The notes under the pieces: model-generated
What the model saw: the letters and a program-made list of their open reading frames with translations, nothing else
Told to the model about the DNA's origin: nothing
Database searches by the model: none
Made by a program: the position numbers and the translations under genes
NCBI GenBank assembly: GCA_963830915.1
Contig: CAWHOE010000047.1
Span: 7,781-71,780 of the forward strand
Reading direction: 5' to 3'
DNA length: 64,000 nucleotides
Source of the DNA: a candidate division FCPU426 bacterium
GTDB lineage: Bacteria > Oederibacteriota > Muellerivitia > Muellerivitales > Muellerivitaceae
Part shown: piece after piece, positions 277 through 64,000 of the stretch
Position numbering within the stretch: position 1 is the first letter of the stretch
Layout: each line of letters opens with the position of its first letter

Positions 277-301
277 TTAGATAGGATACCTTACAGGATG
301 A

Positions 302-48427: not shown

Positions 48428-48440
48428 AACTCCGATCTTT

Positions 48441-50488: not shown

Positions 50489-50545
50489 GGTAAGACCCTT
50501 TCTTATTTACGGAAGATAACTACTGTCGGCCAAGCGCCCAGGCGC

Positions 50546-52412: not shown

Positions 52413-52687
52413 TCGACATCGATTGCAAAGAGGCCAGCAGGCTTTACTCCGAATCCATGCATCACCCTCTGCCCCTTTTAAAATTCATCGCCTTGAAAAT
52501 GCATTTGATGATCTGCGACCTTTGCCGAAAATACGTCAGGCAGTTGAAATTCCTTAGGCGTTCCACGCGGTTGTTGCTTTCAGCGGAGGCGGAAAATGGG
52601 GCGGATCATTCAAAGTTCAAACTCTCGGACAAGGCCAAGAGGCGCCTTAAACTGCGCCTTCGCCAAGCCTCGAACGCCCGCGCCTGA
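52409..52687 (+). CDS. zinc-finger (ZAS) anti-sigma factor, RsrA-like
   Basis: ATGA overlap with the sigma gene. Soluble, 92 aa. C6...H32-x3-C36-x2-C39 has the same spacing as the RsrA zinc/redox ligands. Confidence 0.65.
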   Translation: MIDIDCKEASRLYSESMHHPLPLLKFIALKMHLMICDLCRKYVRQLKFLRRSTRLLLSAEAENGADHSKFKLSDKAKRRLKLRLRQASNARA

Positions 52688-53381
52688 CCGGATCATCCAT
52701 AAGTTCCTTCTCCCTTTGGGTGCCTGTCTCCTGCTCCTGACCGCGTCCGCCTGCCAGGTAAAAGTCACCTACCCGAACGCCGCCGGGACCCTTTTCATCC
52801 GCCAGCAGATCTGCGACCTCCACGACTTCAAAACCGGCTTCTTCAAGCGCGAGAATGACCTCAAGGGCCATGGGTTCCTTACCTACAGTTTCTACCGCGA
52901 CCCCCAGGACCCCAAGACCTATATCCTGTCCTTTGAATGCTCGGACTTGAAAAAGGCGGCGGATCTCATCGGTTCGTCCAATTTTTATATTTCCTGCGTG
53001 GGCGCTGGCCTGGGCCTGCCGCTGGTCTGGGCCGGGGTGGATTTACCAGAGCCGCCCACCCAGGGCCTCACACCCAAGGCGGGCGGGATCGTGGTGGCCC
53101 GTTATAAAGTCAGGGATTACGGGGCCTGGAAAAGGGATTGGGACGCGGCGAACGGCGATGGCAAAACCCGCCTGGGGCGCGGTTTCGCGTTCCGCGCCAT
53201 CAGCCTGCGCCGGGCGGCTGACGATCCCAATACAGTTATCGTGGTTTACGGAGTTTCGGATGTCCCCCAAGCGCGGGCCAATTGGGAGTCTGACACTGAA
53301 AAAAACGCCATGGATGCCGCCAGCGTAATGAAGAAGGACCTCTGGTTTGGGACTGATTTAGAAGAAGGACTCATTCAATGA
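52596..53381 (+). CDS. putative lipoprotein, hypothetical (start uncertain)
   Basis: Hydrophobic LLPLGACLLLLTASAC then about 200 aa. The only canonical start overlaps the anti-sigma gene by 90 nt. Part of this gene (53091-53160) is duplicated at 57256. Confidence 0.4.
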   Translation: MGRIIQSSNSRTRPRGALNCAFAKPRTPAPDRIIHKFLLPLGACLLLLTASACQVKVTYPNAAGTLFIRQQICDLHDFKTGFFKRENDLKGHGFLTYSFYRDPQDPKTYILSFECSDLKKAADLIGSSNFYISCVGAGLGLPLVWAGVDLPEPPTQGLTPKAGGIVVARYKVRDYGAWKRDWDAANGDGKTRLGRGFAFRAISLRRAADDPNTVIVVYGVSDVPQARANWESDTEKNAMDAASVMKKDLWFGTDLEEGLIQ

Positions 53382-53425
53382 GGGTTAGACATCGGGCCTG
53401 ACCCATATACCTGGCCAGGCACCTT

Positions 53426-53956
53426 TTATACCCCTTTATTGCTTCCTATAAATTTAGCTATTACTTTTTTGTTGGCTTCTATAACTTTCTCAAAGGCTGG
53501 CATTTTCGAGTTAAATATAAAATCGTAGTTAGCATCTTTAGCCTTAAATTGATTCACACCATAAGCGATGCTATTAGCCGGTATATTTTTTGTGATTATC
53601 GCGCCTGCCGCCACGACAGAATTTTCACCAATTATTATCGGTCCAAATATTTTCGCTCCATCAGCGATGATCACGTTTTTACTGATGATCGGATTACCGA
53701 TATTTTCCCATTCATTGCTCACTTTGTTGAATTTCAGATTTGCCCCAATACTAACATTTTGAAAAATCACGACGTTTTCGCAAATTTTTGAGGCAACGAT
53801 CGTGCACCCTCGCGCGTGATGAGCGAACAATACACTTTCGTCTATTTCAGTGCAGTTAATTTCACAGCCATAAAATTTTTCCAGTAAGTTGGCAGCCGCT
53901 TGTTTTAGAATTTTATGTTTAGAGAAACAATTTATTTTTAATAATCTATCAAACAT
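53426..53956 (-). CDS. hexapeptide-repeat (LbH) acyl/acetyltransferase
   Basis: Left-handed beta-helix hexapeptide repeats (IGANLKF., IISKNVIIADGAKIFGPIIIGENSVVAAGAIITKNIP). Low-GC gene. Confidence 0.65.
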   Translation of the reverse strand: MFDRLLKINCFSKHKILKQAAANLLEKFYGCEINCTEIDESVLFAHHARGCTIVASKICENVVIFQNVSIGANLKFNKVSNEWENIGNPIISKNVIIADGAKIFGPIIIGENSVVAAGAIITKNIPANSIAYGVNQFKAKDANYDFIFNSKMPAFEKVIEANKKVIAKFIGSNKGV

Positions 53957-54116
53957 ATTTATAACAATCCTTTCTATGAAGCTCTTTTGGGTTTAGGTCA
54001 AATAAACACTTACTCAGCCCTTGCCGCCGAAATATCTCAAGTTTAAATGGGGTTTTCATAATCCGATGCGGGGCCCCGTCGTGAACAATTTTTTTCTCTT
54101 TTTTTATGACCTCAGC

Positions 54117-55241
54117 TTAATTCTTCAACAAATCCTTCAATAGGTTTATTTTTCTTAAAATAATATTGTTTGGTAATCGAACATGACGTGGTTTATTAAG
54201 ATTATTCGTGATTTTGTATTCTGTCATATCACTGTCCGCCATTTCGTAATACTTTAGTGCGGTTTTGAAATCATTCTTCAGGTAATAATAATCACCAAGA
54301 TAGGAATGAAACCGATACTTAGCCGAACGATCTTCAGGGAGCCATTTCCTTAATTCTTCCAGTCCCGCCGACTCATTACCCGTTTCTAAATAAGCGTAGC
54401 TTCTAAAAAGGCCCGTCAAATAAATTAACCCAGAAACATCATCAGGATTTTTAGCGATTTTTTTGTTTAAGCTCCAAATCCGGTCATAAAGCTTGATTCC
54501 CTCTTGTACCCTGCCGGCATAGATGAAAGGCATGAGCCCTTTGGAACAAATTTGAATTGTAATCTCCGGGTTACCTTTCTTTCTGTTTATAAACTTCAAT
54601 GTATTCTCTATGGAGTCCTGATAAATTTCTGGATATTTGTAATTACTGGGAACCATCAAGCCCTTTTGATAAGTGTAAATATCCGGGCCTTCATCTCCAT
54701 AACTTCCTACGGGGACCAATAGAGCATTCACGCCATCCTTCATGGTTTTCACTTGGGCGGATTGAATATTGACGCTTTCGATTTCCTGGAATGTTTTCCC
54801 ATCCCAACGGTAAACATACGTATTGGCCCCAGTCGCCCCATAGACGCAATTTAATATAAGAAATGATTGTTTCGGGTTTTCTGGGTCCAGCGGCGAGGCC
54901 TCAATTCTAATCTTGTAAATATCTGGATAACGAAAACATCCGATTGTTTCGGGTTTACTCGTAGATTTCATCCGTTTAAGGGTAAGGCTCGTATATTCGG
55001 CGCCTTGCTGAGTCCAATGAGTGACGGTTTCCGTTTTTATATTTACTAAATTTCCATCCCCCAGAAGATCCAAATCAATTGAATTGTTAATTACTTGTAG
55101 CTTTTCTTTATCATTTTCTTGGATAGTTGGACTTTGGGATGGGAAACTGGACGATGGTTTTGGGTCTGTTGAATCGGCGGAAACAATACCAACAATAAGG
55201 CAAATGACCAATGCCCAAATATATTTTTGGAAAAATATCAT
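54117..55241 (-). CDS. hypothetical secreted protein (low GC)
   Basis: Signal peptide MIFFQKYIWALVICLIVGIVSA and TPR-like helices at the C-terminus. Confidence 0.4.
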   Translation of the reverse strand: MIFFQKYIWALVICLIVGIVSADSTDPKPSSSFPSQSPTIQENDKEKLQVINNSIDLDLLGDGNLVNIKTETVTHWTQQGAEYTSLTLKRMKSTSKPETIGCFRYPDIYKIRIEASPLDPENPKQSFLILNCVYGATGANTYVYRWDGKTFQEIESVNIQSAQVKTMKDGVNALLVPVGSYGDEGPDIYTYQKGLMVPSNYKYPEIYQDSIENTLKFINRKKGNPEITIQICSKGLMPFIYAGRVQEGIKLYDRIWSLNKKIAKNPDDVSGLIYLTGLFRSYAYLETGNESAGLEELRKWLPEDRSAKYRFHSYLGDYYYLKNDFKTALKYYEMADSDMTEYKITNNLNKPRHVRLPNNIILRKINLLKDLLKN

Positions 55242-55274
55242 TCTAGTAACTTTCCATTCAATACCGTTTCCATT

Positions 55275-55428
55275 GTCCACGATGGGTCCCTGTCGTGGAC
55301 ATCTAAAACCTCAGATTAAAGCCCCAACTTTTTTAGAAGTTGGGCCGTGGTGTACCACTCAATGCCGGTTCCTTCAAAATCCCCGTCATTTGATCAAATG
55401 GGCATTTCCAACTCCAGAGCCAAAGCCA
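55275..55428. repeat. copy A of ~153-bp direct repeat (hairpin GTCCACGAtgggtccctgTCGTGGAC + 3' fragment of a PIN gene)
   Basis: About 94% identical to 56221-56373. It encodes a remnant ...IPIWSNDGDFEGTGIEWYTTAQLLKKLGL-like tail without the rest of the gene. Confidence 0.7.
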
Positions 55429-55467
55429 TAGGAAAAAGTCCGTCTCTCGGACTTTTTCAACATCCTG

Positions 55468-55884
55468 TTAAAAGGGATTTTTAACCGTGAGGTCACCGAA
55501 CTTCCTTCCGGCCTGAAAGTCCTCCGTCAACAATAGCCGGGCTCCACTCCTTTGGGCTGAAACGACAATCAGGGCGTCCCAAAAGGAGATCTTGGCCCGT
55601 TCCTCCAGTTGTGCCGCCTCAGCCACCATTCCCCCATGAATGCTCACCGTATCCCAGGAAAGATATTGGGAAATCAATTCCAAGCCCCGCTTTTTGGTCA
55701 GGGGCTTCGGGATTTTGCGGGTCACATTGACATAAAATTCCTCCAACACCTGGGCGCTCAAGACCCCACCATTGTTCTCCCATAGTTCAACCACCGCTTT
55801 ACGGGCCTTTTGGTGCTTCTCCCCCGCATCCCGGTCATAAGCGTAGAGCAGGATGTTCGTGTCCACAAATGTCTTAACGCTCAT
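55468..55884 (-). CDS. vapC: PIN-domain toxin VapC
   Basis: FVDTNILLYAYD...acidic residues...WDALIV. Confidence 0.85.
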   Translation of the reverse strand: MSVKTFVDTNILLYAYDRDAGEKHQKARKAVVELWENNGGVLSAQVLEEFYVNVTRKIPKPLTKKRGLELISQYLSWDTVSIHGGMVAEAAQLEERAKISFWDALIVVSAQRSGARLLLTEDFQAGRKFGDLTVKNPF

Positions 55885-56104
55885 GAAGGCTTTCCCGAGA
55901 GCTGCGCTTACCGCCGAAAGCTAGCCCTTTTTCCATCGCCTCAAGCGCTTTCACCTTGGATTCCTGGTAAAACTGTTCCTCCGCTGCCATCTTTTGGATA
56001 TAAGCCGCCAATAAACCCGTTATGGAGGTTTCATGATGGGCGGCTAGTATCTTTGCCTTCTTGATGAGGTCTTTGTCCAGGCTCAAGGTTAAGTTTTGTT
56101 TCAC
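55874..56104 (-). CDS. vapB: VapB-type antitoxin
   Basis: 76 aa, overlaps the vapC start by 11 nt; small alpha-helical DNA-binding type. Confidence 0.6.
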   Translation of the reverse strand: MKQNLTLSLDKDLIKKAKILAAHHETSITGLLAAYIQKMAAEEQFYQESKVKALEAMEKGLAFGGKRSSRESLHER

Positions 56105-56220
56105 GGGAGACTCCTTTGCACGTAATTATGTGTATCACGTGAAAGAACTTTTATCAAGTTCAAACAGACGGGTTTATCCGCTTTCCCAGGAAGTCTGTGG
56201 ATGTTTAAGAAAATCTGCCT

Positions 56221-56373
56221 GTCCACGATGGGTCCCTGTCGTGGACATCAAAACCTCAGATTAAAGCCCCAACTTTTTAAGAAGTTGGGCCGTGGTGTAC
56301 CACTCAATGCCGGTTCCTTCAAAATCCCCGTCGTTTGACCAAATGGGTATTTCCAGCTCCAGAGCCAAAGCCA
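56221..56373. repeat. copy B of ~153-bp direct repeat (overlaps 3' end of PIN gene 56261..56692)
   Basis: See copy A. Confidence 0.7.
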
Positions 56374-56692
56374 GCAGATCGACATCATCCGGGTCTCTTT
56401 TACCGATTTTTTTCCGAGCCATTGCGAGCGAGCCCTGATAATCCTTCAAGCCGTACTCCTTGATGGCTAATAATTGAAATTGGCTTTCCAAGAGTTCCGC
56501 GGCTATACCATATTTCTCTGCCATGATCGGCAAGTATTCCCGAACTTCGTGGATATTCAAGGTTGTGGATACGACTTCAAGGTGGGATTGGGTGAAAACT
56601 TTGAGGGCAGCCCTGCCGGTTACAGCGGAAAGGAGGACGTTAGCGTCCGCGGCGATCCGACCGGCGGCTTTTTCTCCATGTTTCAAAGTCAT
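56261..56692 (-). CDS. PIN-domain toxin
   Basis: IAADANVLLSA...DPDDVDLLALALELEIPIWSNDGDF. The start was chosen at MTLKHG. Confidence 0.65.
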   Translation of the reverse strand: MTLKHGEKAAGRIAADANVLLSAVTGRAALKVFTQSHLEVVSTTLNIHEVREYLPIMAEKYGIAAELLESQFQLLAIKEYGLKDYQGSLAMARKKIGKRDPDDVDLLALALELEIPIWSNDGDFEGTGIEWYTTAQLLKKLGL

Positions 56693-56918
56693 GTGTGACC
56701 GTCCGCTCAGTGACGCCTGATTTTTTAAGATGATCCGAAATGGCAAGGCCCAAGTTCATTAAAAGCTCTTTCCGCAATTCCAAAGGTAGTTCCTGTGATT
56801 TGGACATTGGAACCAAAAGGCTGGCAACCTTCCCGTGTTTGGTCACAAACACGAGATCATCGCCGCTCAGAAACTCCGGCGCGTGATCCCTAAATTCCCT
56901 TACCCCCGCGACTCGCAT
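56640..56918 (-). CDS. Phd/YefM-family antitoxin
   Basis: VREFRDHAPEFL..DDLVFVTKHGKVASLLVPM. Confidence 0.7.
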   Translation of the reverse strand: MRVAGVREFRDHAPEFLSGDDLVFVTKHGKVASLLVPMSKSQELPLELRKELLMNLGLAISDHLKKSGVTERTVTHDFETWRKSRRSDRRGR

Positions 56919-57025
56919 AAAACCACCTTCCCGCGACCGTTGATACTTTCTACCCCTTCAATATAGGATTTCATAAAATTATGTCAACAATTATGTACAC
57001 AATATACATTTTCCTTTGTCCACGA

Positions 57026-57106
57026 CGGCGGTGCCCTAAAGTAGACCCTATAGCAGAACCTATCGGCACGCTATAGGGTCTGCTACTGGGATCCCATCGT
57101 GGACAA
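57026..57106. repeat. nested-palindrome element (outer TTGTCCACGA/TCGTGGACAA, inner GTAGACCCTATAGC/GCTATAGGGTCTGC)
   Basis: Read directly. The outer arms are the same GTCCACGA arms as the hairpin in repeat copies A and B. Confidence 0.65.
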
Positions 57107-57138
57107 ACCATTACGATAATTTATGGTTTTCGCCAGAT

Positions 57139-57178
57139 CCCCCGATTACTCAGTCATTGAGTATTTTTACTCAGTCAC
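57139..57178. promoter_or_regulatory. two adjacent operator-like palindromes TACTCAGTCA(T/C)TGAGTA
   Basis: ATTACTCAGTCATTGAGTAT and the perfect TACTCAGTCACTGAGTA, upstream of the gene fragment at 57256. Confidence 0.45.
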
Positions 57179-57255
57179 TGAGTAATCCGTAATAACCTTT
57201 TTCCGCTCCAAAAAGCCCATTTCCGAAGGTTCATTCAAATATCTCATCGATCAAG

Positions 57256-57372
57256 GGATCATGGTGGCGCGTTACAAAGTCAGGGATTACGGGGCCTGGA
57301 AAAGGGATTGGGACGCGGCAAACGGAAAAGAAAAAGCAAAACACAGAAGCAATTCCAACAAAGATCTTAAAC
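57256..57372 (+). pseudogene. 38-codon fragment duplicating an internal segment of the lipoprotein gene 52596..53381
   Basis: MVARYKVRDYGAWKRDWDAANG... is near-identical at nucleotide level to 53091-53160 (IVVARYKVRDYGAWKRDWDAANGDG). Confidence 0.6.
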
Positions 57373-57438
57373 CTGAATGATAGTTTTCAAGACTTGTTGG
57401 AGAGTTTTCTGGTCGCCGACATGAAGGCAGCCCATTTT

Positions 57439-57717
57439 CTAGATAACCAAACTTTTCTCAATAGTGGCCAAAATTGGTTTGAAAACAGAAGGTTTCAAAA
57501 GACCCGTCCCCTTCCAGTTGGAAAGGCTCGTTCCCCCGAAGGCGTGGGTGGTACTTGGTTGACTGGTGAGGGCCAGGATGATCAGGTCCGGACGGGAACG
57601 ATTATAGGGGTTAGAACTGACAACAACCGCGGGGCGTTTCTTCACGGCGGTTTGGTTGGAGAATGGAAAAGGGACTAAAACCACATCCCCGAAGTCAAAG
57701 CTTGTCGTAGATGGCAT
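57439..57717 (-). CDS. MazF/PemK-family toxin
   Basis: GDVVLVPFPFSNQTAVKKRPAVVVS...IILALTSQ. Confidence 0.8.
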   Translation of the reverse strand: MPSTTSFDFGDVVLVPFPFSNQTAVKKRPAVVVSSNPYNRSRPDLIILALTSQPSTTHAFGGTSLSNWKGTGLLKPSVFKPILATIEKSLVI

Positions 57718-57907
57718 CTTCGGGGTTATCCCAGACCTTGGCGAATGACTTTTCAGAGAGTTTGGAAGCCGCCCTGGTCAATGGTCTGTCTGTTCCCTTC
57801 TGGCCCAAAAATTCAACGAAATCCTCTACTTCGTTTATTTTCTCGGCCGGCAGGGCTTCGATTTTCTTGATGAGTGTTAAGACGTTTTTCCTGTTCATGA
57901 AAACCAT
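57695..57907 (-). CDS. antitoxin partner of MazF-like toxin
   Basis: 70 aa, overlaps the toxin start. Confidence 0.5.
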   Translation of the reverse strand: MVFMNRKNVLTLIKKIEALPAEKINEVEDFVEFLGQKGTDRPLTRAASKLSEKSFAKVWDNPEDAIYDKL

Positions 57908-58010
57908 TATACCTTTCCTTTAGATTTTATAAAGTCGCAAAACCTAATAGTCAATTATCCATAAGAAACCAAAAGGTTATATGAATGAACCCAGGGTCAG
58001 TTAACCCGGG

Positions 58011-58150
58011 GTCAGGCCTGAAAATGAAGTGCAACCTGTTTGGTGCCTTGTGCCAATCAACCATTAATGTTGGCTGTGTCTCTGTGCCTCTGTGGTGAAA
58101 TGGAAAATTAATGAGCTACCAACCAAAATTTCATTTTACAGGCCCGACCC
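58011..58150. repeat. MITE-like palindromic element (terminal IR TCAGGCCTGAAAATGAA / TTCATTTTACAGGCCCGA)
   Basis: A shortened copy lies at 63948..>64000. A right-end-only copy lies at 60166-60194. Confidence 0.55.
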
Positions 58151-58165
58151 CCACACACTCATGAC

Positions 58166-58296
58166 GGTCGGCAGCTAACAGTCGACAAGTGACAGCTCAC
58201 AGCTGACAGCTGACGGTCGGCAGCTCACTAACGGCAGCTGGCAGTCGACAGCTAACAGGCGACAGGCCCCAGTTAACAGTCGACAGCTCACAGCTA
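58166..58296. repeat. imperfect microsatellite block (GACAGCTGACAG / CAGTCGACAG units)
   Basis: Inverted counterpart at 61960-62030 (CTGTCGACTGTCAGCTGT...). Confidence 0.65.
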
Positions 58297-58466
58297 GTAA
58301 TAAGGCGTACACCCCCTACCCTTCCTAGTTTCGGGTTGGAGGTCGTGGGAAGGGCCTAGAGGACTCAAAGTTGTCATGGACATTAGTATTTTCTCAGAAT
58401 CTGAACACTTTGCCCCGAGTCGGGGCAAGAAATCCCTCAGCACAGGTGCCCAGCGGCTGGGCAAAA

Positions 58467-58705
58467 TGCCAGTGGGAGTCAGGCCAAATGCTAACGGCCA
58501 AACCCTTAATACCAGTGGGCGTGCCAGTAGAGATGCCATTGGACGGCTCAAAATGCCAGTGGGAATGCCAGTGGACAACCCCAAATGCCAGTGGGGGTCA
58601 GACAAAATTCCAATGGCCAAACCCTAAATGCCAGTGGGCATGCCAGTGGAGATGCCATTGGACGGCTCAAAATGCCAGTGGGAATGCCAGTGGACGTGCC
58701 AGTGG
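58467..58705. repeat. direct-repeat array, family 1: ~11 x (A)TGCCAGTGG, with a ~95-bp higher-order duplication
   Basis: Counted directly. Spacing is irregular, 3-20 bp. Confidence 0.7.
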
Positions 58706-58916
58706 TGGCACGATGGCACGATAGGTTTCTGGTGGCACAATGTCATCGATGACCATGGTTTGTCCCCAGAAATTCTAGGGTTGTCCCCAGTTTTTCGATG
58801 TTTTGTCCCCAGAAATCCGGTTTTGTCCCCGGTTTTCCCTATTGTGCCACTGGCACAATAGCGTGGCACGATAGGCGTCCGGTGGCACGATGCCGGTGAT
58901 GGCACGATGGCACGAT
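58704..58916. repeat. family 2: ~7 x TGGCACGAT (opposite half-site orientation), 4 x TTGTCCCC(A/G)G at ~22-bp spacing, 23-bp perfect palindrome CTATTGTGCCACTGGCACAATAG
   Basis: Counted directly. The palindrome is at about 58846-58868. Confidence 0.7.
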
Positions 58917-58995
58917 CCCCCTTCGCCTTTCGTCGCTATCGCTAGGCTACGAAGGGCAGGCCGCTAGGCTTCGGGAACATGTAAGCATCGGATTT

Positions 58996-59220
58996 GTTTA
59001 CTGGAAAACTCCGGGTTTACTGGATTTAGCCGGTTTGTTCACTGGAAACGGGTCCTGTTTACTGGATTTGCTCGAAGAGTTTACTGGAAATCCGCTACTG
59101 TTTACTGGGAACACCGGGTGTGTTTACTGGAAAACACCGGAGTTTACTGGATTTGCTCGGAGAGTTTACTGGAAACGGGTCCTGTTTACTGGATTTGTGG
59201 GGGAGTTTACGGAGTTTCCG
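58996..59220. repeat. iteron-like array: ~11 x GTTTACTGGA(A/T) at 19-22-bp period
   Basis: Unit types alternate, tttactggaaa... and tttactggattt... A ~60-bp higher-order repeat is present. Confidence 0.75.
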
Positions 59221-59235
59221 ACAATCCCCCCTTTT

Positions 59236-59480
59236 GACTTGCCAATTTCGTTACTCGGAGTAACAAAGTAATCGGCCACTTGCCAATTAATGTCATCGGT
59301 GACCGGCGCATTTACCGGCACTTGCCAATTTTTATTACCCGGTAATATTTTGGGTATGGGTGGGGGGGTTAGGCATCAGAAATTACCACGCCGTGATAAT
59401 TCAGACCCCTTAATTTATAACGGCGTTATAAACCAGGGGCTTGGGGGAGGGGGGGTACCCCCCTGGTTTTATCACACTGT
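59236..59480. promoter_or_regulatory. 3 x ACTTGCCAATT each followed by a short palindrome, then further palindromes (TTATAACGGCGTTATAA, GGGGGGTACCCCCC)
   Basis: Read directly. The palindromes are TTACTCgGAGTAA, CGGTgACCG and TTACCcGGTAA. Confidence 0.55.
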
Positions 59481-59641
59481 AATAAATCTGGGGCCGGGCT
59501 GAGGGGAGGCTTGGTAAAAGGCTTATTTTGGACCCTTCGACGCGGCTCAGGGCAAGAGTCTTACGTATGGCTGAGGTTGTCATGCCGACCTTCCCATAAA
59601 TCCATTAAAGAGGTCGGCACTGTGGTGAAAGTTGGTTTATT

Positions 59642-60108
59642 TCACTTAACTTCTTTCAGGTTAGGGTCTTGGGTACCGTATTGGGAACCGCTCAGGTCCA
59701 CATCCTCCGAGGGGTCTTGTTTGTAGAGCCTGTAACAGGTGGCGCGGCCGGTATAAACAAAGAACCCGAACTCGGTCTTGACCGTGTTCACCTCATCGAA
59801 AATGACCGCGTTGGCCCCGTATTCCGCCGCCTTCGCCTGGAACTCACTGATCAGTTTCTTGTCCGACCATTCGCATCTCTGGGGCGGCAGGAGCGTGCAG
59901 ACTTGGACCCATTGGAGGTCCGGGGGGAAGGCTTCCTTCGAGAGGAAGAAATAGACCTCGCTGGTTTCAAGGGGGGATAGCTGGCTTCCCCATTGAGCTT
60001 TTGGGCCACCGCCGGCCAGTCATAGAGGGTCACGGCGCAACCGGCCAAACCCAGCGTCAGGCCGGCACAACAAATGAGCCCGAATAGGTTTCCAGAACGA
60101 GACGCCAT
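59642..60108 (-). CDS. lipoprotein, hypothetical; apparent frameshift in G6 run at 59970-59975
   Basis: N-terminal MASRSGNLFGLICCAGLTLGLAGCAV (lipobox). After the G-run the other frame continues ...EVYFFLSKEAF...AAEYGANAVIFDEVNTVK...* for about 100 aa. The track shows only the 85-aa N-terminal ORF 59851..60108. Confidence 0.5.
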
Positions 60109-60198
60109 TTTTATTCCGCTTTCTTTTTTCGGGTGATCGACCGGACCATCGCGATCACTTCATTCGATCAAAATTTCATTTTTCAGGCCCGGCCCCGA

Positions 60199-60510
60199 TC
60201 ATTCGGAATTCTTACGGGCGCGGTCCAGGGAAAGGGCTGGGTCGGCCATGTCCTTAAGCCGTTCATTTCCCACTTTTGCCAACCAAAGCTTCAATGGCTC
60301 GGCTTTGGGGCTGGGGACAGATTGAACCAGTCGTAAAAGTGTCTCGGAATCCGCGACATCTGTCAGATATTCCTTGCCGTCTGGGGCAATCAATTTCAGG
60401 GCGTTACAGTTTGTAACGACCTGGCCTTCCACTAATTCAGTTGGTGACAATTTGTCACCGACTAACTCTGAACCATCGACAAACTGTCGACGGTTCAATT
60501 CTTTAACCAT
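60199..60510 (-). CDS. phage-related regulatory protein fragment (antirepressor/Bro-like C-terminal region)
   Basis: SPKAEPLKLWLAKVGNERLKDMADP resembles the conserved PEA+.FK.W motif region of phage antirepressor-type proteins. An earlier DinD guess was rejected. Confidence 0.3.
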   Translation of the reverse strand: MVKELNRRQFVDGSELVGDKLSPTELVEGQVVTNCNALKLIAPDGKEYLTDVADSETLLRLVQSVPSPKAEPLKLWLAKVGNERLKDMADPALSLDRARKNSE

Positions 60511-60567
60511 TTTCGTGACGCTAAGGAATTGTCTGGTTTAGATCTAAACAACACCCAACTCCATTAC

Positions 60568-60597
60568 GACCCTATTGCTGACGTCAGCAATAGGGTC
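60568..60597. promoter_or_regulatory. perfect 30-bp palindrome GACCCTATTGCTGAC|GTCAGCAATAGGGTC, ~65 nt upstream of the 60199..60510 gene
   Basis: Read directly. It shares the CCCTATTGC/GCAATAGGG arms with 61928-61949. Confidence 0.7.
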
Positions 60598-60951
60598 CTT
60601 CTATTTCATCAATTTACCCGACCAGAGTTCTTCCAAAAATACGGCCCAGGGCAAAATCCTGATACTCCCCACTTGCCGGGGTTTCGGGGAAAGGTTATTC
60701 CATCTTCACGACTTCAGATATCTCGTTCATGACCGCGTTTTCGATTTCTTCCTTGATCGCTTCCGCGCTAGGTGTGTCGGTATGTTTATGTGCCCGATTC
60801 CATCCATATGCGACCCCATCCTCTACCTGCCCCGAGCCCTCAAGGCGAGGGGCTTGTTTGGTTATGCCGATTTCATTTGGAAATCGGCGACCGCACGGGC
60901 AAGGACCTTATAAACATTGACCTTAATTTTCACTTTTGGCATGTTTCACCT

Positions 60952-61326
60952 CTATTTGTAACGCTTCGCTTTTTCTTTCGCCAAACTGACAGGTTTCAAA
61001 TCCTCTTTCTTCTGTGTATACATACCGCGTTTCTTGATGGGTTCGACCCTGATCTTGAAACCCAGACCATGCACGATCCCTTCCACCGTGGAATAAGCTG
61101 GGTCCCTTTTACCGGAAAAAGCGCGATAAAGATTCTGACGGTTCAAGCCGGAGACCTTCGAAAGTTTCGCCACACCACCCAGAGCATCCGCGACGTTCTT
61201 GAACATCAATAAGGACGTACCAAAGTCATCCTCATTCAGGGCTTCGTTCAAATAAGCCTCACGAAAATGCACGTTCTTTCTTAATTGGTTGATGAGATGT
61301 TGATCGAATGACGCGGCGCCTTTCAT
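60952..61326 (-). CDS. HigA-like HTH antitoxin (addiction-module antidote protein)
   Basis: Start MKGAASFDQHL. ...LLMFKNVADALGGVAKLSKVSGLNRQNLYRAFSGKRDP..STV. Confidence 0.7.
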   Translation of the reverse strand: MKGAASFDQHLINQLRKNVHFREAYLNEALNEDDFGTSLLMFKNVADALGGVAKLSKVSGLNRQNLYRAFSGKRDPAYSTVEGIVHGLGFKIRVEPIKKRGMYTQKKEDLKPVSLAKEKAKRYK

Positions 61327-61682
61327 AGTTTCCCCCTGTTTCGTTGCTTGAATTCCCGCCAATAATCCACGGCGGTACCGATGTCTTTTTGCTGGCCCCT
61401 CTTGTTCCCGCCGGTCAACAAAAGGATGGTTACAGCCCCCGCGTGGGCGAAATAAGCTCTCCAGCCCGGCCCGAAATCCATGACCAACTCGCAAACTCCC
61501 TCGCACCCTGGTAATAATTTCGCGTTTCCCATATTGCCCGATTGAATGCGGGCTAAATACTTGGCGATTTTAGAAGCCGTGGCAGGGTCCCTTTCCAACA
61601 CCATATCGAACCATTCACGGAAGGGTTTTCTTCCGTCGGGTTTTTCATAGTCCAATAATTCTCGGGGTCGTGTTTCAGGCAT
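61323..61682 (-). CDS. RelE/ParE-superfamily toxin (HigB-like addiction-module killer)
   Basis: DPATASKIAKYLARIQSGNMGNAKLLPGCEGVCELVMDFGPGWRAYFAHAGAVTILLLTGGNKRGQQKDI. Stop/start overlap with the antitoxin. Confidence 0.7.
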   Translation of the reverse strand: MPETRPRELLDYEKPDGRKPFREWFDMVLERDPATASKIAKYLARIQSGNMGNAKLLPGCEGVCELVMDFGPGWRAYFAHAGAVTILLLTGGNKRGQQKDIGTAVDYWREFKQRNRGKL

Positions 61683-61927
61683 AGGTTTTATCCATATTGT
61701 CGCCGTTTGGCGACACGGAGTCAAGAGAACATTGGGGGTGGGGTGGTCTCAGTTAAAGAGCGGGAATAATGCCAATAGCCAAGGATTATTTTCTACGAAT
61801 TTTCCTACGTGCTGTCTCCTGCCTCGAGGTAACAAGCCTTCTTCATTGAGGCCTCAGGCCGAAATGAATGGTTTGATGGTGCCAGACCTTATAGAAGGTC
61901 TGGTAGTGAGAGGCATGGTTTGGTGAT

Positions 61928-61949
61928 CCCTATTGCTATGGCAATAGGG
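61928..61949. promoter_or_regulatory. palindrome CCCTATTGCtatgGCAATAGGG upstream of higBA-like operon
   Basis: Same arms as the 60568 palindrome. Confidence 0.6.
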
Positions 61950-61959
61950 GTCTTCTGCC

Positions 61960-62030
61960 TGCTGTCGACTGTCAGCTGTTTTTTGTCAGCTGTTAGCTGT
62001 CGACTGTGGACTGTCGACTGTTAGCTGCCG
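61960..62030. repeat. inverted copy of the GACAGCTG microsatellite block
   Basis: CTGTCGACTGTCAGCTGTTTTTTGTCAGCTGTTAGCTGTCGACTGTGGACTGTCGACTGTTAGCTG. Confidence 0.65.
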
Positions 62031-62037
62031 TATGCCT

Positions 62038-63282
62038 CTATCCATTCCATTCGGCGTAGCCGCGGTCGTCGATCAAGCTCTTACACTTATTCCTCATCGC
62101 GTTGAACAAGTGCAATTCTCTACTCTCTCCATACCCAGCTTCAGGTTCACCTGCCATGCGACCACTCATCCAACTCTCACCCTCAAGGTGAGAGTTGACG
62201 GTTGATGATGCCGACTGATTGAAAGTCGGTATAGGCGCGTGGCTCGATTTGGTTGTACCCATTTCCAAATCAGAAATGGGTATGCGGCCATAAGTAGGTA
62301 TGGCCTTCAGGTAATGGAGCAGGCGTTCTTTCACCTCATCCAATTTCTCAGGGGTGGGTATCTTGTCGCTTTTGCGTGAATTCTCAGCGGAGTGGCAGGG
62401 CATGAGATTGGGCAGGCTGTTATCCCCCCACAAAGAAAAGGGTATGACGTGGTCCACCGCCAGTTTGTCCTTCGTAATGGGTTTGCCGCACCAAATACAG
62501 GGCAATACTTCCCCCTTATCCAGAAGCGCCAGAAAATGCTCACGGGCGTCTTTAACGTCCCTTTCATCCGAAGGCGGGGTGGATATCAAGCTCAGGACTT
62601 TTTCGGTTTTAACGCCGCTGTTCTTGATCCCCGCCGTGAATTCCGCCCATTGGTAAAGGATGCTTTCAGTGCCGATGATGATGGCTCCCAATTGTTTCAG
62701 CGGGGCTAAATAAGCCTCTGATATTTGGTAACTGCCATAGGAATTTCTCAGGAATTCATTATCAAAACAGTCGCAGACCGGGTTCCTGAGGGGTTTCGAT
62801 ATCGGTCTTACGACCGAATAGTCCCTGCCGTTCGCGCTAAAGCCCAGGTGGAGCATGGGCATTTTGGTGATGGTATCGGCGATCTTATCGGCCGCGGCTT
62901 TGAACTCGCCTGCCGCCTGGCCCACTATCCTCCCGCGTTGAAACTCATGATGGAAAGCCGTGTAGCCTTCCTCCCCCTGAAAACGGGATATGGCCTTTTT
63001 AAGAAGGGGCCTGAAAGCTATTTGACTGCCTTCCCCGCCGGGCAATTCCCCATGCTTCTGGGGTATATCCGCTTGGATCAATGGGAAGTAGTAATAGATC
63101 CACCATTTGACGAGAAGCCCCAGGGGATAAATCCCCTTTTCCACCTCAGCCGGGGCCAATTCATAACAGTCTTTATCGATGACATCCAACATTCCCCGCA
63201 AAAGGGCGAACTTGTAGGTGGCGTCGTATTGGTCGCGTTTGAGGATTTGGAGGATCTTGTTTATGTCGCTGGGTTTGGCCAT
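62038..63282 (-). CDS. HNH-endonuclease-domain protein with uncharacterised N-terminal region
   Basis: C-terminal CIWCGKPITKDKLAVDHVIPFSLWGDNSLPNLMPCHSAENSRK (HNH: C..C..DH..P....N....C..CN). The first ~270 aa are unrecognised. Confidence 0.6.
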   Translation of the reverse strand: MAKPSDINKILQILKRDQYDATYKFALLRGMLDVIDKDCYELAPAEVEKGIYPLGLLVKWWIYYYFPLIQADIPQKHGELPGGEGSQIAFRPLLKKAISRFQGEEGYTAFHHEFQRGRIVGQAAGEFKAAADKIADTITKMPMLHLGFSANGRDYSVVRPISKPLRNPVCDCFDNEFLRNSYGSYQISEAYLAPLKQLGAIIIGTESILYQWAEFTAGIKNSGVKTEKVLSLISTPPSDERDVKDAREHFLALLDKGEVLPCIWCGKPITKDKLAVDHVIPFSLWGDNSLPNLMPCHSAENSRKSDKIPTPEKLDEVKERLLHYLKAIPTYGRIPISDLEMGTTKSSHAPIPTFNQSASSTVNSHLEGESWMSGRMAGEPEAGYGESRELHLFNAMRNKCKSLIDDRGYAEWNG

Positions 63283-63394
63283 GGGGGCATTATATGTCTA
63301 TGGGGATTGGGTGGCATTTAAAAGGCCATATACCTTTTTGTTATAAAATAAAACGCGTAATTCTTCGTTAGGATTAGAATTAATCAATAAAGAA

Positions 63395-63925
63395 TTGTTT
63401 AAAAAGGGGTTGAATATGACCATAGAGGAACGTTTGGTAGTGTTGGAAAAGGAATTAAATAAATCGAAGCGCCGCACCCATTACTTATTGGGCACTCTAA
63501 TTTTAATTGTCACAATTGGGATTATGGGCGCAACATCCTTGAAGTCGGGAAATGTTATTCGGGCAAACAGGTTTATTCTCGAAGATCAAAATGGGAATGT
63601 AAGGGGTGTTCTTTCAGTAAATGATAATGATCCAGCGTTACACCTATTAGACGAAAACGGAAAGGTTCGTGTAGCTTTAGGAATAACTAAGTATGGGCCA
63701 ACTTTAGGCCTATGCGATGAGAACGGGACAGCACGATCTACGCTGTCAGCAGTTGAAGGCGGTCAAGGCGTTGGCCTTTTTGACGAAAAAGATACACTTC
63801 GCGCAATGCTAGGAATTTCAAAAGGCAAGCCAGGTTGTTGTTTGTACGATGTAAACGGAAATTCCATTTGGGGGTCATGCAGTTATCAGCCCCACCACAA
63901 TGCCCAAGAAGGTGTGAAGAATTAA
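63395..63925 (+). CDS. hypothetical membrane-anchored protein with ~25-aa DENG-containing repeats
   Basis: One TM helix, then repeats (LEDQNGNVRGVL / LLDENGKVRVAL / LCDENGTARSTL / LFDEKDTLRAML / LYDVNGNSIWG). Confidence 0.35.
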   Translation: MFKKGLNMTIEERLVVLEKELNKSKRRTHYLLGTLILIVTIGIMGATSLKSGNVIRANRFILEDQNGNVRGVLSVNDNDPALHLLDENGKVRVALGITKYGPTLGLCDENGTARSTLSAVEGGQGVGLFDEKDTLRAMLGISKGKPGCCLYDVNGNSIWGSCSYQPHHNAQEGVKN

Positions 63926-64000
63926 AGATACAATAGTGGATCCTTGGCCAGGCCTGAAAATAGATAATTAACGAATTACCAACCAAAATTTCATTTTTTA

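What the first reader, a model, noticed from the sequence alone, without database searches (positions are those of the whole stretch)
53400..64000. Low-GC accessory island dense in toxin-antitoxin modules, gene fragments and repeat families
From ~53.4 kb the GC content drops and the content changes. It includes an LbH acetyltransferase, VapBC, Phd/PIN, MazEF-like, HigBA-like, a lipoprotein and an HNH protein. Four or five TA pairs in ~8 kb, together with hairpin and MITE-like repeats, is characteristic of an integrated mobile element or a defence/addiction island. A 60-70-nt internal piece of the flanking lipoprotein gene (53091-53160) is duplicated at 57256-57320 with about 90% identity, which marks a recombination scar or island boundary. 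No integrase is present in the window.
Basis: partly seen in the sequence, partly recalled or inferred. Interest (0 to 1): 0.55.

Follow-up and report, generated by a model that had tools for sequence, protein, structure and literature searches.

The report
Strain-variable toxin-antitoxin and defence hotspot
The last 11 kb of this window, from the chromosome of an uncultured peat-bog bacterium (candidate division FCPU426), is a patchwork of four toxin-antitoxin gene pairs, broken genes and small palindromic repeats. Its pieces differ between near-identical strains, which makes it an ordinary accessory "hotspot", not an intact mobile element.

Summary
The "low-GC island" is only partly real. 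GC is 38% in 53387-55291, 48% in 55292-58028 and at background (50-52%) from 58 to 63.3 kb.

The region holds four type II TA loci: DUF6364/PIN, Phd-like/PIN_2, DUF2281/MazF and HI1419/HI1420. It also holds an HNH nuclease, five gene fragments or pseudogenes, three palindromic repeat families and a 1.2-kb block of non-coding tandem arrays.

Metagenomic sister strains keep the TA genes at 98.9-100% identity. They swap the low-GC LbH+374-aa cassette for candidate defence gene PDC-S01, carry LemA+584-aa where the window has a palindrome, and carry HEC-01 next to the HNH gene. Swap breakpoints fall on the repeats.

The LbH gene is 73% identical in protein to a Leptospira plasmid gene. The Phd-like/PIN_2 module recurs in unrelated contexts, with homology ending at its flanking 28-nt hairpins.

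I found no integrase, tRNA, phage or plasmid backbone.

Verdict: a chromosomal accessory/defence hotspot built by repeated recombination. It is a new member of a known kind, of modest interest. The tandem arrays remain unexplained.

The parts
52596..53381 (+). Flanking 261-aa putative lipoprotein gene ('lipo261'). Its last ~300 nt (53085-53389) is the sequence that recurs as orphan copies inside the island.
   Evidence: ORF, no Pfam hit. 96.2% identical to the sister strain as part of block 48333-53386. Repeat copies.
53387..55291 (-). Strain-specific low-GC cassette (38.4% GC). It holds the LbH/hexapeptide acetyltransferase (53426-53956) and a 374/387-aa secreted protein of unknown function (54117-55241/55280).
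   Evidence: GC. Hexapep E 1.6e-07. Absent from sister contigs, which carry PDC-S01 + lipoprotein fragment + a 152-aa gene instead. LbH is 76% nt / 73% aa identical to a Leptospira interrogans plasmid gene. The 374-aa protein has only 5 relatives in 5.8 billion proteins. Junctions reproduced by independent assemblies L001 and L094.
55274..55428 (.). 155-nt direct repeat, copy 1: hairpin H1 (55274-55301) plus an orphan copy of the last 124 nt of the PIN_2 gene. The strain-replacement breakpoint (55291/55292) lies inside H1.
   Evidence: 96% to 56220-56373. H1 fold z -3.3. Breakpoint.
55468..56104 (-). TA pair 1: DUF6364 antitoxin (55874-56104) and PIN-domain VapC-like toxin (55468-55884), overlapping by 11 nt.
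   Evidence: PF01850 E 1.3e-13; PF19891 E 8.5e-11. VapC is identical in 7 metagenome contigs.
56220..57028 (-). TA pair 2 as a discrete module: H1 hairpin (56220-56247), PIN_2 toxin (56261-56692), 92-aa Phd-like antitoxin (56640-56918), a promoter-like site (56987-56960), and the left arm of the upstream H1 (57017-57028).
   Evidence: PF10130 E 1.1e-19. Weak PhdYeFM hits in 6 of 18 relatives. Exactly this span is 90.5% identical to L106:9891-10699, which sits in an unrelated context (IS21, group II intron RT, BrnTA). Promoter-like site.
57017..57105 (.). H1 hairpin carrying a second palindrome nested in its loop (GTAGACCCTATAGC...GCTATAGGGTCTGCTAC).
   Evidence: Fold -26.7 kcal/mol, z -6.3. 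The nested palindrome is single-copy.
57114..57334 (+). Junction unit: H2 perfect hairpin (57144-57187) followed by the 71-nt orphan fragment of lipo261 (57255-57325).
   Evidence: H2 z -7.9. The whole 221-nt unit recurs at 94% in the sister strain, joined to a 306-nt lipo261 fragment. A further H2 copy lies in the sister's 5.1-kb left insert.
57367..57907 (-). TA pair 3: DUF2281 antitoxin (57695-57907) and PemK/MazF toxin. In this strain the toxin is cut from 116 to 92 aa by a CAG->TAG change at 57439-57441.
   Evidence: PF02452 E 1.7e-09; PF10047 E 3.5e-06. Comparison with the intact sister genes.
57999..58151 (.). H3 palindromic element (GGGGTCAGGCCTGAAAAT ... ATTTTACAGGCCCGACCCC). It sits exactly where sister strains carry LemA + a 584-aa gene between two H3 copies.
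   Evidence: The sister copy folds with z -4.9, but the window copy, folded truncated at 58140 and so missing part of its right arm, gave z +1.35. A related element is present in the species-level relative L015.
58162..59335 (.). Non-coding block of six different short tandem arrays: 7-mer GACAGCT-type (58162-58295); 12-mer AATGCCAGTGGG (58440-58710); TGGCACGAT (58697-58741 and 58841-58916); 21-mer GTTTTGTCCCCAG (58755-58830); 21/42-mer GTTTACTGGA (58990-59215); CTTGCCAAT x3 (59239-59335). Function unknown.
   Evidence: Copy number differs between strains, and the 12-mer array is absent from the sister. No comparable non-coding arrays in window 1-52 kb or in 261 kb of related genomes. No Rfam match.
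59642..60108 (-). 155-aa lipoprotein gene, frameshifted in this strain near 59965.
   Evidence: tblastn against the intact sister protein splits into two frames. The same sequence appears in independent assembly L010.
60169..60510 (-). 103-aa ORF (60199-60510) that is a fragment of a PDC-S13-type candidate defence gene, followed by a half copy of H3 (60169-60196).
   Evidence: PADLOC PDC-S13 E 2.6e-33, covering only profile positions 59-131 of 286. phrog_15286 positions 60-128 of 274. H3 half.
60952..61655 (-). TA pair 4 (HigBA-like gene order, toxin first): TIGR02683 RelE/ParE-family killer (61323-61655) and dnstrm_HI1420 antidote (60952-61326).
   Evidence: 100% identical to sister strains over 60890-61827.
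61945..62036 (.). Second heptamer array, the reverse complement of the one at 58162-58295. Together the two bracket 3.7 kb.
   Evidence: Inverted repeats I1-I9, 72-88% complementary. TRF. Present with a different copy number in the sister strains.
62038..63282 (-). 414-aa HNH_4 nuclease with an uncharacterised N-terminal region (374 aa in sister strains).
   Evidence: PF13395 E 3.8e-11. Only the HNH motif matches Cas9 HNH domains. About 27% identical to plasmid proteins annotated as class I SAM methyltransferases.
63283..64000 (+). Strain-specific low-GC end (40% GC): a 169-aa protein of unknown function (63416-63925) and another H3 copy (63935 to beyond the window end). Sister strains carry HEC-01 (ABC ATPase + DUF4276) here.
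   Evidence: In the same strain a DUF2075/SLFN-helicase-type ORF follows about 0.5 kb beyond the window.

Best explanation
The window is chromosomal DNA of an uncultured candidate-division-FCPU426 bacterium from peat or bog.

Positions 53.4-64 kb, continuing past the window end, are a strain-variable accessory hotspot. It was assembled piecemeal by repeated recombination. It is not a single integrated element.

A set of four type II toxin-antitoxin operons is shared by all close strains and probably stabilises the region (inferred). Between and beside them lie 'slots' whose content is exchanged between strains:
- an imported low-GC acetyltransferase cassette versus the candidate defence gene PDC-S01;
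- nothing versus LemA + a 584-aa gene;
- a 169-aa gene versus the candidate system HEC-01.

The exchange breakpoints sit on short repeats: the 3' end of the lipoprotein gene, the 28-nt hairpin H1 and the palindrome H3. These repeats therefore act as recombination substrates (shown as coincidence of position; the mechanism is inferred).

The orphan copies of the lipoprotein 3' end, each preceded by the same H2-containing sequence, are best read as leftover attachment-site copies. They would come from successive insertions at that gene's 3' end whose recombinase genes have since been lost (inferred).

The region is also decaying in this strain: a nonsense codon in MazF, a frameshift in a lipoprotein gene, and three orphan gene fragments.
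For: ORGANISM AND CHROMOSOMAL SETTING. The closest genomes are FCPU426 MAGs. The rest of the window encodes RodA, MreB, PheS, ThrS, a Tad pilus and a secretin.

TA GENES. HMM hits above curated cut-offs.

STRAIN COMPARISON.
- The TA block 55292-58028 is 98.9% identical and 60890-61827 is 100% identical, while the flanking block 48333-53386 is only 96.2%.
- Replacement at 53387-55291, indel at 58029-58172, replacement beyond 63296, a 62-nt indel at 60828-60889, and array copy-number changes.

CANDIDATE DEFENCE GENES IN SISTER SLOTS. PDC-S01 2e-153; HEC-01A 2e-150; HEC-01B 7e-80.

IMPORTED CASSETTE. 38.4% GC. LbH is 76% nt / 73% aa identical to a gene on Leptospira plasmid Laicp that lies near a PIN/RHH pair.

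BREAKPOINTS ON REPEATS.
- 55291/55292 lies inside H1.
- 58028/58029 lies at the H3 left arm, and LemA-584aa is flanked by H3 copies in the sister strain.
- 53386-53389 is the end of the lipoprotein repeat.

MODULARITY. The Phd-like/PIN_2 operon occurs in two other contexts. In L106 the homology runs exactly from H1 to H1.

ATT-LIKE REPEATS. A 306-407-nt direct repeat flanks PDC-S01 in the sister strain. The same H2 + fragment junction recurs at 94% identity.

DECAY..

NOT AN ARTEFACT..
Against: - No recombinase has been found, so the attachment-site reading is inference. The same pattern could arise from segmental duplication plus homologous recombination.
- In the window's own strain the low-GC cassette is not followed by its own H2 + fragment copy. 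It looks like a replacement rather than an insertion.
- H1 also lies between ordinary genes in relative L026. It may be a general REP-like element whose position at breakpoints is partly coincidental.
- Only strain-level relatives share this locus. At species level the neighbourhood of the DsbD-like gene is not conserved at all, so a clean 'empty site' was never observed.
- The defence role of PDC-S01 and HEC-01 is unproven. [quoted passage not shown]
- TA density in the rest of the window was not exhaustively scanned.
- Two of the three H3 copies folded, including the window's own, are no more stable than shuffled sequence. The palindromic character of H3 rests on its conserved inverted arms and one sister copy.
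Confidence: 0.7

Rival explanations
1. One integrated mobile element (ICE, IME, prophage or satellite) whose integrase and transfer genes lie beyond the window end. The 71-nt lipoprotein fragment would be one of its attachment sites.
For: Direct repeats of a gene's 3' end are the classic signature of site-specific integration. The accessory content continues past the window end. The sister contigs end only 2.4 kb beyond the HNH gene, so nobody has seen the far side.
Against: - The repeat pair encloses only 53.1-57.3 kb, not the whole block, and that interval holds no recombinase.
- No phage or plasmid DNA match apart from the LbH gene, and no strong PHROG signal.
- Composition is heterogeneous.
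- Sub-segments vary independently between strains, while the TA core is fixed in every close strain recovered.
- Another variable site lies outside the block at 48.1-48.3 kb.
Confidence: 0.1
2. The TA operons and other genes are discrete cassettes moved by a site-specific (Xer-like tyrosine) recombinase acting on the 28-nt H1 sites. This would be a chromosomal analogue of the dif modules of Acinetobacter plasmids.
For: - H1 (TTGTCCACGAC-GGGGAC-CCNTCGTGGACAA) can be read as 11-6-11, the architecture of dif/pdif sites.
- The Phd-like/PIN_2 operon, with an H1 at each end, is the exact unit of homology between two unrelated contexts.
- BrnTA in L106 is also bracketed by H1.
- One strain-replacement breakpoint lies in the H1 centre.
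- H1 copies are clustered: 3 in the island, 4 in L106 and 6 in 10 kb of L026, but none in window 1-53 kb or in about 240 kb of other FCPU426 loci.
- dif modules often carry TA genes (PMC6449649, PMC13141974).
Against: - The H1 arms are near-perfect inverted repeats with no XerC/XerD asymmetry.
- Flanking H1 copies share the same central-region orientation, whereas dif modules are flanked by inversely oriented sites.
- H1 keeps a constant orientation relative to transcription and lies between ordinary genes in L026, as REP-type RNA or DNA elements do.
- The 80%-identical copy in L104 has no H1.
- No recombinase has been linked to it.
- The VapBC 'module' also carries a 124-nt PIN_2 fragment, which a clean site-specific exchange would not produce.
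Confidence: 0.12
3. Ordinary core chromosome. The composition dip and the repeats would be chance or lineage-wide features with no accessory character.
For: GC is heterogeneous across the whole window (39-63% per kb). Positions 58-63.3 kb are at background GC. Another low-GC patch lies at 1-3 kb.
Against: - There are four or more strain-level presence/absence differences in 11 kb.
- All dispersed repeats of the window fall here.
- A cross-phylum gene match exists.
- Tetranucleotide distance exceeds the background 95th percentile at 53.0-54.0 kb and 57.0-58.0 kb window starts.
Confidence: 0.03

Closest known systems
Chromosomal defence islands / variable integration hotspots rich in type II TA modules
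   Same: Clustered TA operons, nuclease and ATPase genes. Candidate defence systems (PDC-S01, HEC-01, a PDC-S13 fragment, a DUF2075/SLFN-type gene) occupy interchangeable slots. Content differs between near-identical strains, and some cargo has atypical GC.
   Different: In this strain no complete, validated defence system is detected. The defence genes sit in sister strains and are only candidates. The host is an uncultured candidate division. The flanks are not a tRNA or another known hotspot gene.
Tandem accretion of integrative elements and their integrase-less derivatives (cis-mobilisable elements, CIMEs, described for Streptococcus ICESt1-type elements; from my own knowledge)
   Same: Several direct copies of the 3' end of one target gene (lipo261). 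Each orphan copy is preceded by the same conserved element end (the H2 region). In the sister strain the arrangement is gene - cargo - H2 + fragment - cargo - H2 + fragment. No recombinase lies between the repeats.
   Different: No intact parent element with an integrase has been found anywhere. One repeat copy is truncated to 71 nt. The window's own cassette lacks the expected distal repeat. Excision or mobilisation is untested.
dif modules bounded by pdif (XerC/XerD) sites in Acinetobacter plasmids (PMC6449649, PMC13141974)
   Same: Small modules, often TA pairs, bounded by 28-bp sites with two inverted arms. The same module is found in different contexts with homology ending at the sites.
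   Different: The location is chromosomal in a distant phylum. The arms are symmetric. The flanking sites are in direct, not inverse, orientation. There is no similarity to dif consensus sequences and no Xer link.
REP (repetitive extragenic palindromic) elements
   Same: H1, H2 and H3 are 28-150-nt intergenic palindromes, multi-copy in the lineage. H1 has a fixed orientation relative to neighbouring genes. Such elements are known recombination hot spots.
   Different: The distribution is strongly clustered in accessory DNA rather than genome-wide (in the roughly 400 kb examined). No RAYT-type transposase has been seen. H1 lacks the GTAG head typical of RAYT-associated REPs, although the palindrome nested inside one H1 copy has it.
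Sedentary chromosomal integron cassette arrays / CALINs
   Same: Nearly all genes are co-oriented, and the content is TA pairs, acetyltransferase, lipoproteins and small unknown genes. Imperfect palindromes lie between cassettes. No integrase lies nearby.
   Different: The palindromes show no R''/R' core (RYYYAAC ... GTTRRRY) on inspection. They belong to three unrelated families and are not consistently 3' of each ORF. The attC covariance model could not be run.

Membership tests
Type II toxin-antitoxin systems | Two small adjacent co-oriented genes, overlapping or nearly so | tested here: met
   All four pairs overlap or abut: 55874/55884, 56640/56692, 57695/57717 and 61323/61326.
Type II toxin-antitoxin systems | Toxin belongs to a recognised toxin family above the curated threshold | tested here: met
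   PIN 52.0 bits (cut-off 23.6), PIN_2 71.4 (22.4), PemK 38.3 (23.1), TIGR02683 80.7 (62.85). MazF is truncated by a nonsense codon in this strain.
Type II toxin-antitoxin systems | Partner belongs to a recognised antitoxin family | tested here: inconclusive
   DUF6364 42.6 bits (27.3), DUF2281 28.0 (26.5) and dnstrm_HI1420 43.8 (27) are met. The 92-aa 'Phd' partner has no hit itself, and only 6 of 18 relatives hit PF02604, at best E 3.5e-4.
Type II toxin-antitoxin systems | Toxin arrests growth and the antitoxin neutralises it | not testable with these tools
   Needs expression experiments.
Integrative genomic island / integrated mobile element | Site-specific recombinase (integrase) at one end | tested here: not met
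   None in 53-64 kb. None among 20 other window ORFs. None in 2.4 kb beyond the HNH gene in sister contigs or 0.7 kb beyond the window in the same strain. Sequence further out was unavailable.
Integrative genomic island / integrated mobile element | Flanking direct repeats derived from the target (attL/attR), typically the 3' end of a gene | tested here: met
   71 nt at 94% in the window. 306-407 nt at 87-90% in the sister strain, running to and past the stop codon of lipo261. They enclose only part of the block.
Integrative genomic island / integrated mobile element | Composition differs from the host chromosome | tested here: inconclusive
   38.4% GC for 53387-55291 and 40% for 63283-64000, against 52.8% background. 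58-63.3 kb is at background.
Integrative genomic island / integrated mobile element | Present in some relatives and absent (empty site) in others | tested here: inconclusive
   Sub-segments are polymorphic, but the TA core is in all strain-level relatives. Species-level relatives show no synteny at all, so no empty site could be identified.
Defence island | Several recognised anti-phage systems clustered together | tested here: inconclusive
   Window: only a PDC-S13 fragment plus HNH-motif hits. Sister strain: PDC-S01 and HEC-01 complete. Both are candidates without demonstrated defence.
Integron cassette array / CALIN | attC sites with R''-L''...L'-R' structure and a GTTRRRY core at each cassette's 3' end; intI nearby for a complete integron | tested here: not met
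   By inspection, H1, H2 and H3 lack the inverse core pair. No intI was found. The attC covariance model was not available, so this is a weak test.
dif modules (pdif / XerCD) | 28-bp sites made of 11-bp XerC arm, 6-bp spacer and 11-bp XerD arm, with distinct arms | tested here: inconclusive
   H1 fits 11-6-11 in length, but its two arms are the same sequence inverted (9 to 10 of 11 positions).
dif modules (pdif / XerCD) | Modules flanked by inversely oriented sites | tested here: not met
   Central regions of the H1 copies flanking Phd-like/PIN_2 in L106 (GGGGAC and GGGGAG) and VapBC in the window (both GGTCCC) have the same orientation.
dif modules (pdif / XerCD) | The same module occurs in different contexts, with homology ending at the sites | tested here: met
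   Window 56220-57028 = L106 9891-10699 (90.5%), from H1 to H1, with unrelated flanks. This is a single example.
REP-like extragenic palindromes | Short intergenic palindrome, multi-copy within a lineage | tested here: met
   H1: 3 copies in the window, 4 in L106, 6 in L026, all intergenic. H3 is present in the window, the sister strains and L015.

The most novel reading that the evidence does not exclude
The 28-nt H1 palindromes are recombination sites of a cassette system that shuffles TA pairs and other small modules around the chromosomes of FCPU426 bacteria. That would be a chromosomal counterpart, in a candidate phylum, of the plasmid dif-module system.

The neighbouring 1.2-kb block of six tandem arrays could then be a functional protein-binding element rather than slippage debris, for example an iteron- or centromere-like element, or a GGA-rich protein-sponge RNA.

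My evidence does not exclude this. One module has exact H1-to-H1 homology in two contexts. One strain breakpoint lies inside an H1. H1 copies cluster in accessory DNA. The arrays are conserved between strains yet unique in about 325 kb of lineage DNA.
Probability: 0.12. Interest if true: 0.6.

Novelty: new member of a known kind. Interest (0 to 1): 0.3.

Why it matters
The finding shows that an uncultured peat-bog lineage with no isolates keeps the same kind of TA-anchored, strain-variable defence hotspot known from model bacteria.

It gives concrete coordinates for the swap points. It also documents cross-phylum traffic of a low-GC acetyltransferase gene shared with Leptospira plasmids.

The practical value is modest. 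It offers a natural strain series for asking whether short palindromes such as H1 and H3 guide cassette exchange, and a place to look for new defence genes in FCPU426.

The tandem-array block is the only part that no known category explains.

Tried and rejected
- SPECIES-LEVEL SYNTENY TEST. I fetched 80 loci around homologues of the flanking DsbD-like gene. None of the FCPU426 relatives shares the MsrAB - sigma - lipoprotein - island neighbourhood, and the gene has paralogues. No empty site could be defined.
- LIPOPROTEIN GENE AS BAIT in metagenome contigs. This returned only the sister contig and one short orthologous fragment.
- WALKING BEYOND THE WINDOW END. Exact-protein look-ups gave only 0.7 kb more. 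The 374-aa protein's 81.8-kb source contig could not be retrieved. A homologue search with the partial DUF2075 ORF found no exact full-length protein.
- PROPHAGE OR PLASMID ORIGIN. PHROGs gave nothing specific. There was no phage DNA match. The only plasmid DNA match is the LbH gene.
- STRUCTURED RNA. No Rfam family at E<=1 in 52.5-64 kb.
- INTEGRON READING. Rejected on inspection of the palindromes.
- H1 AS AN INTRINSIC TERMINATOR. Rejected: it has no T-run after the stem in the direction of transcription.
- TANDEM ARRAYS IN VIRAL CONTIGS. Five chance or coding hits and zero hits for the two patterns tried.
- ARRAYS AS A GGA-MOTIF SPONGE RNA. The + strand carries 24 GGA against 13 on the - strand and folds slightly better than shuffles (z -2.3 and -2.5, against -0.6 for the - strand). 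This is too weak to claim.
- PROMOTER AND TERMINATOR SCANS. Counts equal the shuffled expectation.
- SOLVED-STRUCTURE SEARCHES for the HNH, Phd-like and 387-aa proteins. Uninformative.

Full report
**What the sequence is.** The closest genomes to the flanking genes are metagenome-assembled genomes labelled candidate division FCPU426, from bog, peat and soil projects. The first 53 kb of the window encode housekeeping functions: RodA, MreB, PheS, ThrS, a Tad-type pilus with secretin, and three tRNAs at 24.7-26.8 kb. The setting is therefore a chromosome. Immediately left of the finding lie a DsbD/thioredoxin-like gene, MsrAB, an ECF sigma factor with its anti-sigma, and a 261-aa putative lipoprotein gene, 52596-53381, here called lipo261.

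**Checking the observation: genes.** The gene calls hold up under HMM searches.
- A hexapeptide (LbH) acetyltransferase.
- DUF6364 + PIN.
- A 92-aa protein + PIN_2.
- DUF2281 + PemK/MazF.
- A TIGR02683 RelE/ParE-type killer + dnstrm_HI1420 antidote, in HigBA-like gene order.
- An HNH_4 nuclease.

That gives four TA pairs in 6.3 kb, all on the minus strand. The "Phd" label for the 92-aa protein is only weakly supported. The protein itself hits nothing, and 6 of its 18 database relatives touch PF02604 at E no better than 3.5e-4.

**Checking the observation: repeats.** The duplication is real: 53085-53155 equals 57255-57325, 71 nt at 94%. A self-comparison of the whole window finds only three dispersed repeats, and all three lie in 53-62 kb. 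The second is a 155-nt direct repeat, 55274-55428 = 56220-56373 at 96%. It consists of the last 124 nt of the PIN_2 gene plus a hairpin, and it brackets the VapBC pair. The third is a pair of heptamer arrays in inverted orientation, 58162-58295 and 61945-62036.

**Checking the observation: composition.** Against a background of 52.8% (sd 4.1% in 2-kb windows), the values are:

| Segment | GC |
|---|---|
| 53387-55291 | 38.4% |
| 55292-58028 | 47.6% |
| 58029-63282 | 50-52% |
| 63283-64000 | 40% |

**What relatives show.** Exact-protein look-ups recovered three long metagenome contigs (173-183 kb) and several short ones from closely related strains. They also recovered short independent assemblies of the window's own strain, which reproduce its junctions at 100% identity. 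This rules out mis-assembly.

In the sister strains the TA block 55292-58028 is 98.9% identical and the HigBA-like region is 100% identical. The "core" flank 48333-53386 is only 96.2% identical. Between these shared pieces the content differs:
- (i) The window's low-GC LbH + 374-aa cassette (53387-55291) is replaced by an AAA_14/DUF4143 ATPase (PADLOC candidate PDC-S01, E 2e-153), a 306-nt copy of the lipo261 3' end, and a 152-aa gene.
- (ii) The sisters have LemA plus a 584-aa gene where the window has only a 150-nt palindromic element (57999-58151).
- (iii) A 270-nt 12-mer array is present only in the window, and other array copy numbers differ.
- (iv) There is a 62-nt indel at 60828-60889.
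- (v) Beyond 63296 the sisters carry an ABC ATPase plus DUF4276 (PADLOC HEC-01A/B, E 2e-150 and 7e-80), where the window has a 169-aa unknown gene.
- A sixth difference, a 5.1-kb insert in the sisters, lies left of the supposed island boundary, between 48076 and 48333.

About 0.5 kb past the window end, the window's own strain has a DUF2075/Schlafen-helicase-type ORF.

According to the papers that define them, PDC-S01 and HEC-01 are candidate defence systems. [quoted passage not shown]

**Origin of the low-GC cassette.** The LbH gene matches a gene on Leptospira interrogans plasmids at 76% nucleotide and 73% protein identity. The Leptospira gene is annotated as a serine acetyltransferase or hexapeptide transferase. 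On plasmid Laicp it lies about 0.7 kb from a PIN/RHH pair. That level of identity across phyla, together with 38% GC, indicates horizontal acquisition. Its neighbour, the 374-aa secreted protein, has only five relatives among 5.8 billion proteins.

**Decay.** In this strain:
- The MazF-like toxin carries a CAG->TAG change that removes its last 24 residues.
- The 155-aa lipoprotein gene is frameshifted, and the same sequence appears in an independent assembly.
- The 103-aa ORF is an internal fragment of a PDC-S13-type gene.
- Orphan pieces of PIN_2 and of lipo261 complete the list.

**Repeats and breakpoints.** Three palindrome families occupy the intergenic junctions.
- H1 (TGTCCACGA-N10-TCGTGGACA) lies at 55274, 56220 and 57017. 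The last copy has another palindrome nested in its loop.
- H2 is a perfect 20+20 hairpin at 57144-57187.
- H3 lies at 57999-58151, as a half copy at 60169-60196, and at 63935 onward.

H1 and H2 fold far better than shuffled sequence. For H3 only the sister copy does (z -4.9). The window copy, folded truncated at 58140, and the L095 copy do not.

None of the three families occurs in the other 53 kb of the window. The strain-level breakpoints coincide with them. 55291/55292 lies inside H1. 58028/58029 lies at the left arm of H3, and the sister's LemA-584aa segment sits between two H3 copies. 53386-53389 is the end of the lipo261 repeat.

In the sister strain the lipo261 3' end plus about 100 nt downstream forms a 407-nt direct repeat around PDC-S01. 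Both orphan fragments are preceded by the same H2-containing 140 nt, at 94% identity. This arrangement is gene - cargo - [H2 + fragment] - cargo - [H2 + fragment]. It is what successive site-specific insertions at one gene's 3' end leave behind. No recombinase is present, so this step is inference.

**Modularity of the TA operons.** The Phd-like/PIN_2 pair occurs in two other genomes in unrelated neighbourhoods. In one it follows TsaE/TsaB/RimI. In the other it lies beside an IS21-type transposase, a group II intron reverse transcriptase and a BrnTA pair. In the second genome the homology with the window (90.5%) runs exactly from the upstream H1 to the downstream H1 and stops there. BrnTA there is also bracketed by H1.

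This resembles the dif modules of Acinetobacter plasmids (PMC6449649, PMC13141974). Several points argue against membership, however. The H1 arms are symmetric. The flanking copies share one orientation. H1 keeps a fixed orientation relative to transcription. In another relative, H1 sits between ordinary genes such as MsrB, AhpC, TetR and an SDR. The conservative reading is a REP-like palindrome that is a preferred recombination substrate. The site-specific cassette reading stays open at about 12%.

**What remains unexplained.** Positions 58162-59335 are non-coding and consist of six different short tandem arrays, with units of 7, 12, about 9, 21, 21/42 and about 42 nt. Most of the block is nearly identical in the sister strains, though copy numbers differ. 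Nothing like it occurs in the rest of the window or in 261 kb of related genomes. It matches no Rfam family. Scans of viral contigs were uninformative. Its + strand is GGA-rich and folds slightly better than shuffles. I offer no firm function for it. Slippage-expanded debris of a former replication or partition region, or arrays of protein-binding sites, are the candidates.

**Verdict.** This is an accessory, recombination-prone TA/defence hotspot, and the 71-nt duplicate is a true scar. There is no evidence for a single integrated mobile element, the low GC is confined to imported cassettes, and the boundary at 53.4 kb is only one of several swap points. It is a new example of a known kind of genome region in a poorly known phylum, and the interest is modest.

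Noticed in passing
window 58162-59335: A 1.2-kb non-coding block made of six different short tandem arrays back to back (7-mer, 12-mer, TGGCACGAT, two 21-mers, CTTGCCAAT). It is conserved between strains apart from copy number and the 12-mer array, and it is unique within about 325 kb of lineage DNA examined. No function could be assigned.
   Followed up: partly
window 58162-58295 and 61945-62036: Two heptamer (GACAGCT-type) arrays in inverted orientation bracket a 3.7-kb segment holding the other arrays, the frameshifted lipoprotein gene, the PDC-S13 fragment and the HigBA-like pair. No inversion was seen among the strains recovered.
   Followed up: partly
window 53426-53956; L107 (Leptospira interrogans plasmid Laicp, NC_025151.1) 4960-5508: The LbH acetyltransferase gene is 76% nt / 73% aa identical to a gene carried on many Leptospira interrogans plasmids. 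This is an unexpectedly close cross-phylum match.
   Followed up: yes
window 48076-48333; L097 581-5729: Sister strains carry a 5.1-kb insert here: three surface- or secreted-type proteins, an H2 hairpin copy joined directly to the 'post-lipoprotein' sequence, and a PemK fragment. The variable zone therefore extends left of the reported island.
   Followed up: partly
window 48333-53386 versus 55292-58028 and 60890-61827: Between strains the 'core' flank is more diverged (96.2%) than the TA blocks (98.9-100%). This suggests recent exchange or a sweep of the TA segments.
   Followed up: no
window 57041-57083 (inside the H1 copy at 57017-57105): A single-copy palindrome with a GTAG...CTAC head and tail, the signature of RAYT-type REP elements, is nested in the loop of an H1 hairpin.
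   Followed up: partly
L026 5400-15000 (FCPU426 MAG MFD01231.bin.1.41): Six H1 copies lie within 10 kb, between a Fic gene, unknown genes, DUF1223, MsrB, AhpC, a DsbD paralogue, TetR and an SDR. The same MAG has a second DsbD-like paralogue on another contig (L021), next to a lipo261 homologue and, 7 kb away, a tyrosine recombinase.
   Followed up: partly
L095 2194-2517 (about 0.3-0.7 kb beyond the window end): The DUF2075/SLFN-helicase ORF matches thousands of short (about 110-190 aa) database proteins. Some sit on contigs of about 100 kb, which hints at a stand-alone C-terminal-domain family rather than a full helicase.
   Followed up: no
window 1-3000: A second low-GC patch (about 41-45% GC) holds an SDR, a pyrimidine-dimer DNA glycosylase and an unknown 166-aa ORF.
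   Followed up: no
window 27804-30446, repeats at 28204-28523: An 880-aa ORF has 24/48/72-nt in-frame repeats and extreme AT and GC skew (AT skew -0.48 at 28-29 kb).
   Followed up: no
window 62038-63282: The N-terminal two-thirds of the HNH protein is about 27% identical to plasmid-borne proteins annotated as class I SAM-dependent methyltransferases in Roseomonas and Azospirillum. The window copy is 40 aa longer than the sister's, with a divergent stretch at 62110-62286.
   Followed up: partly
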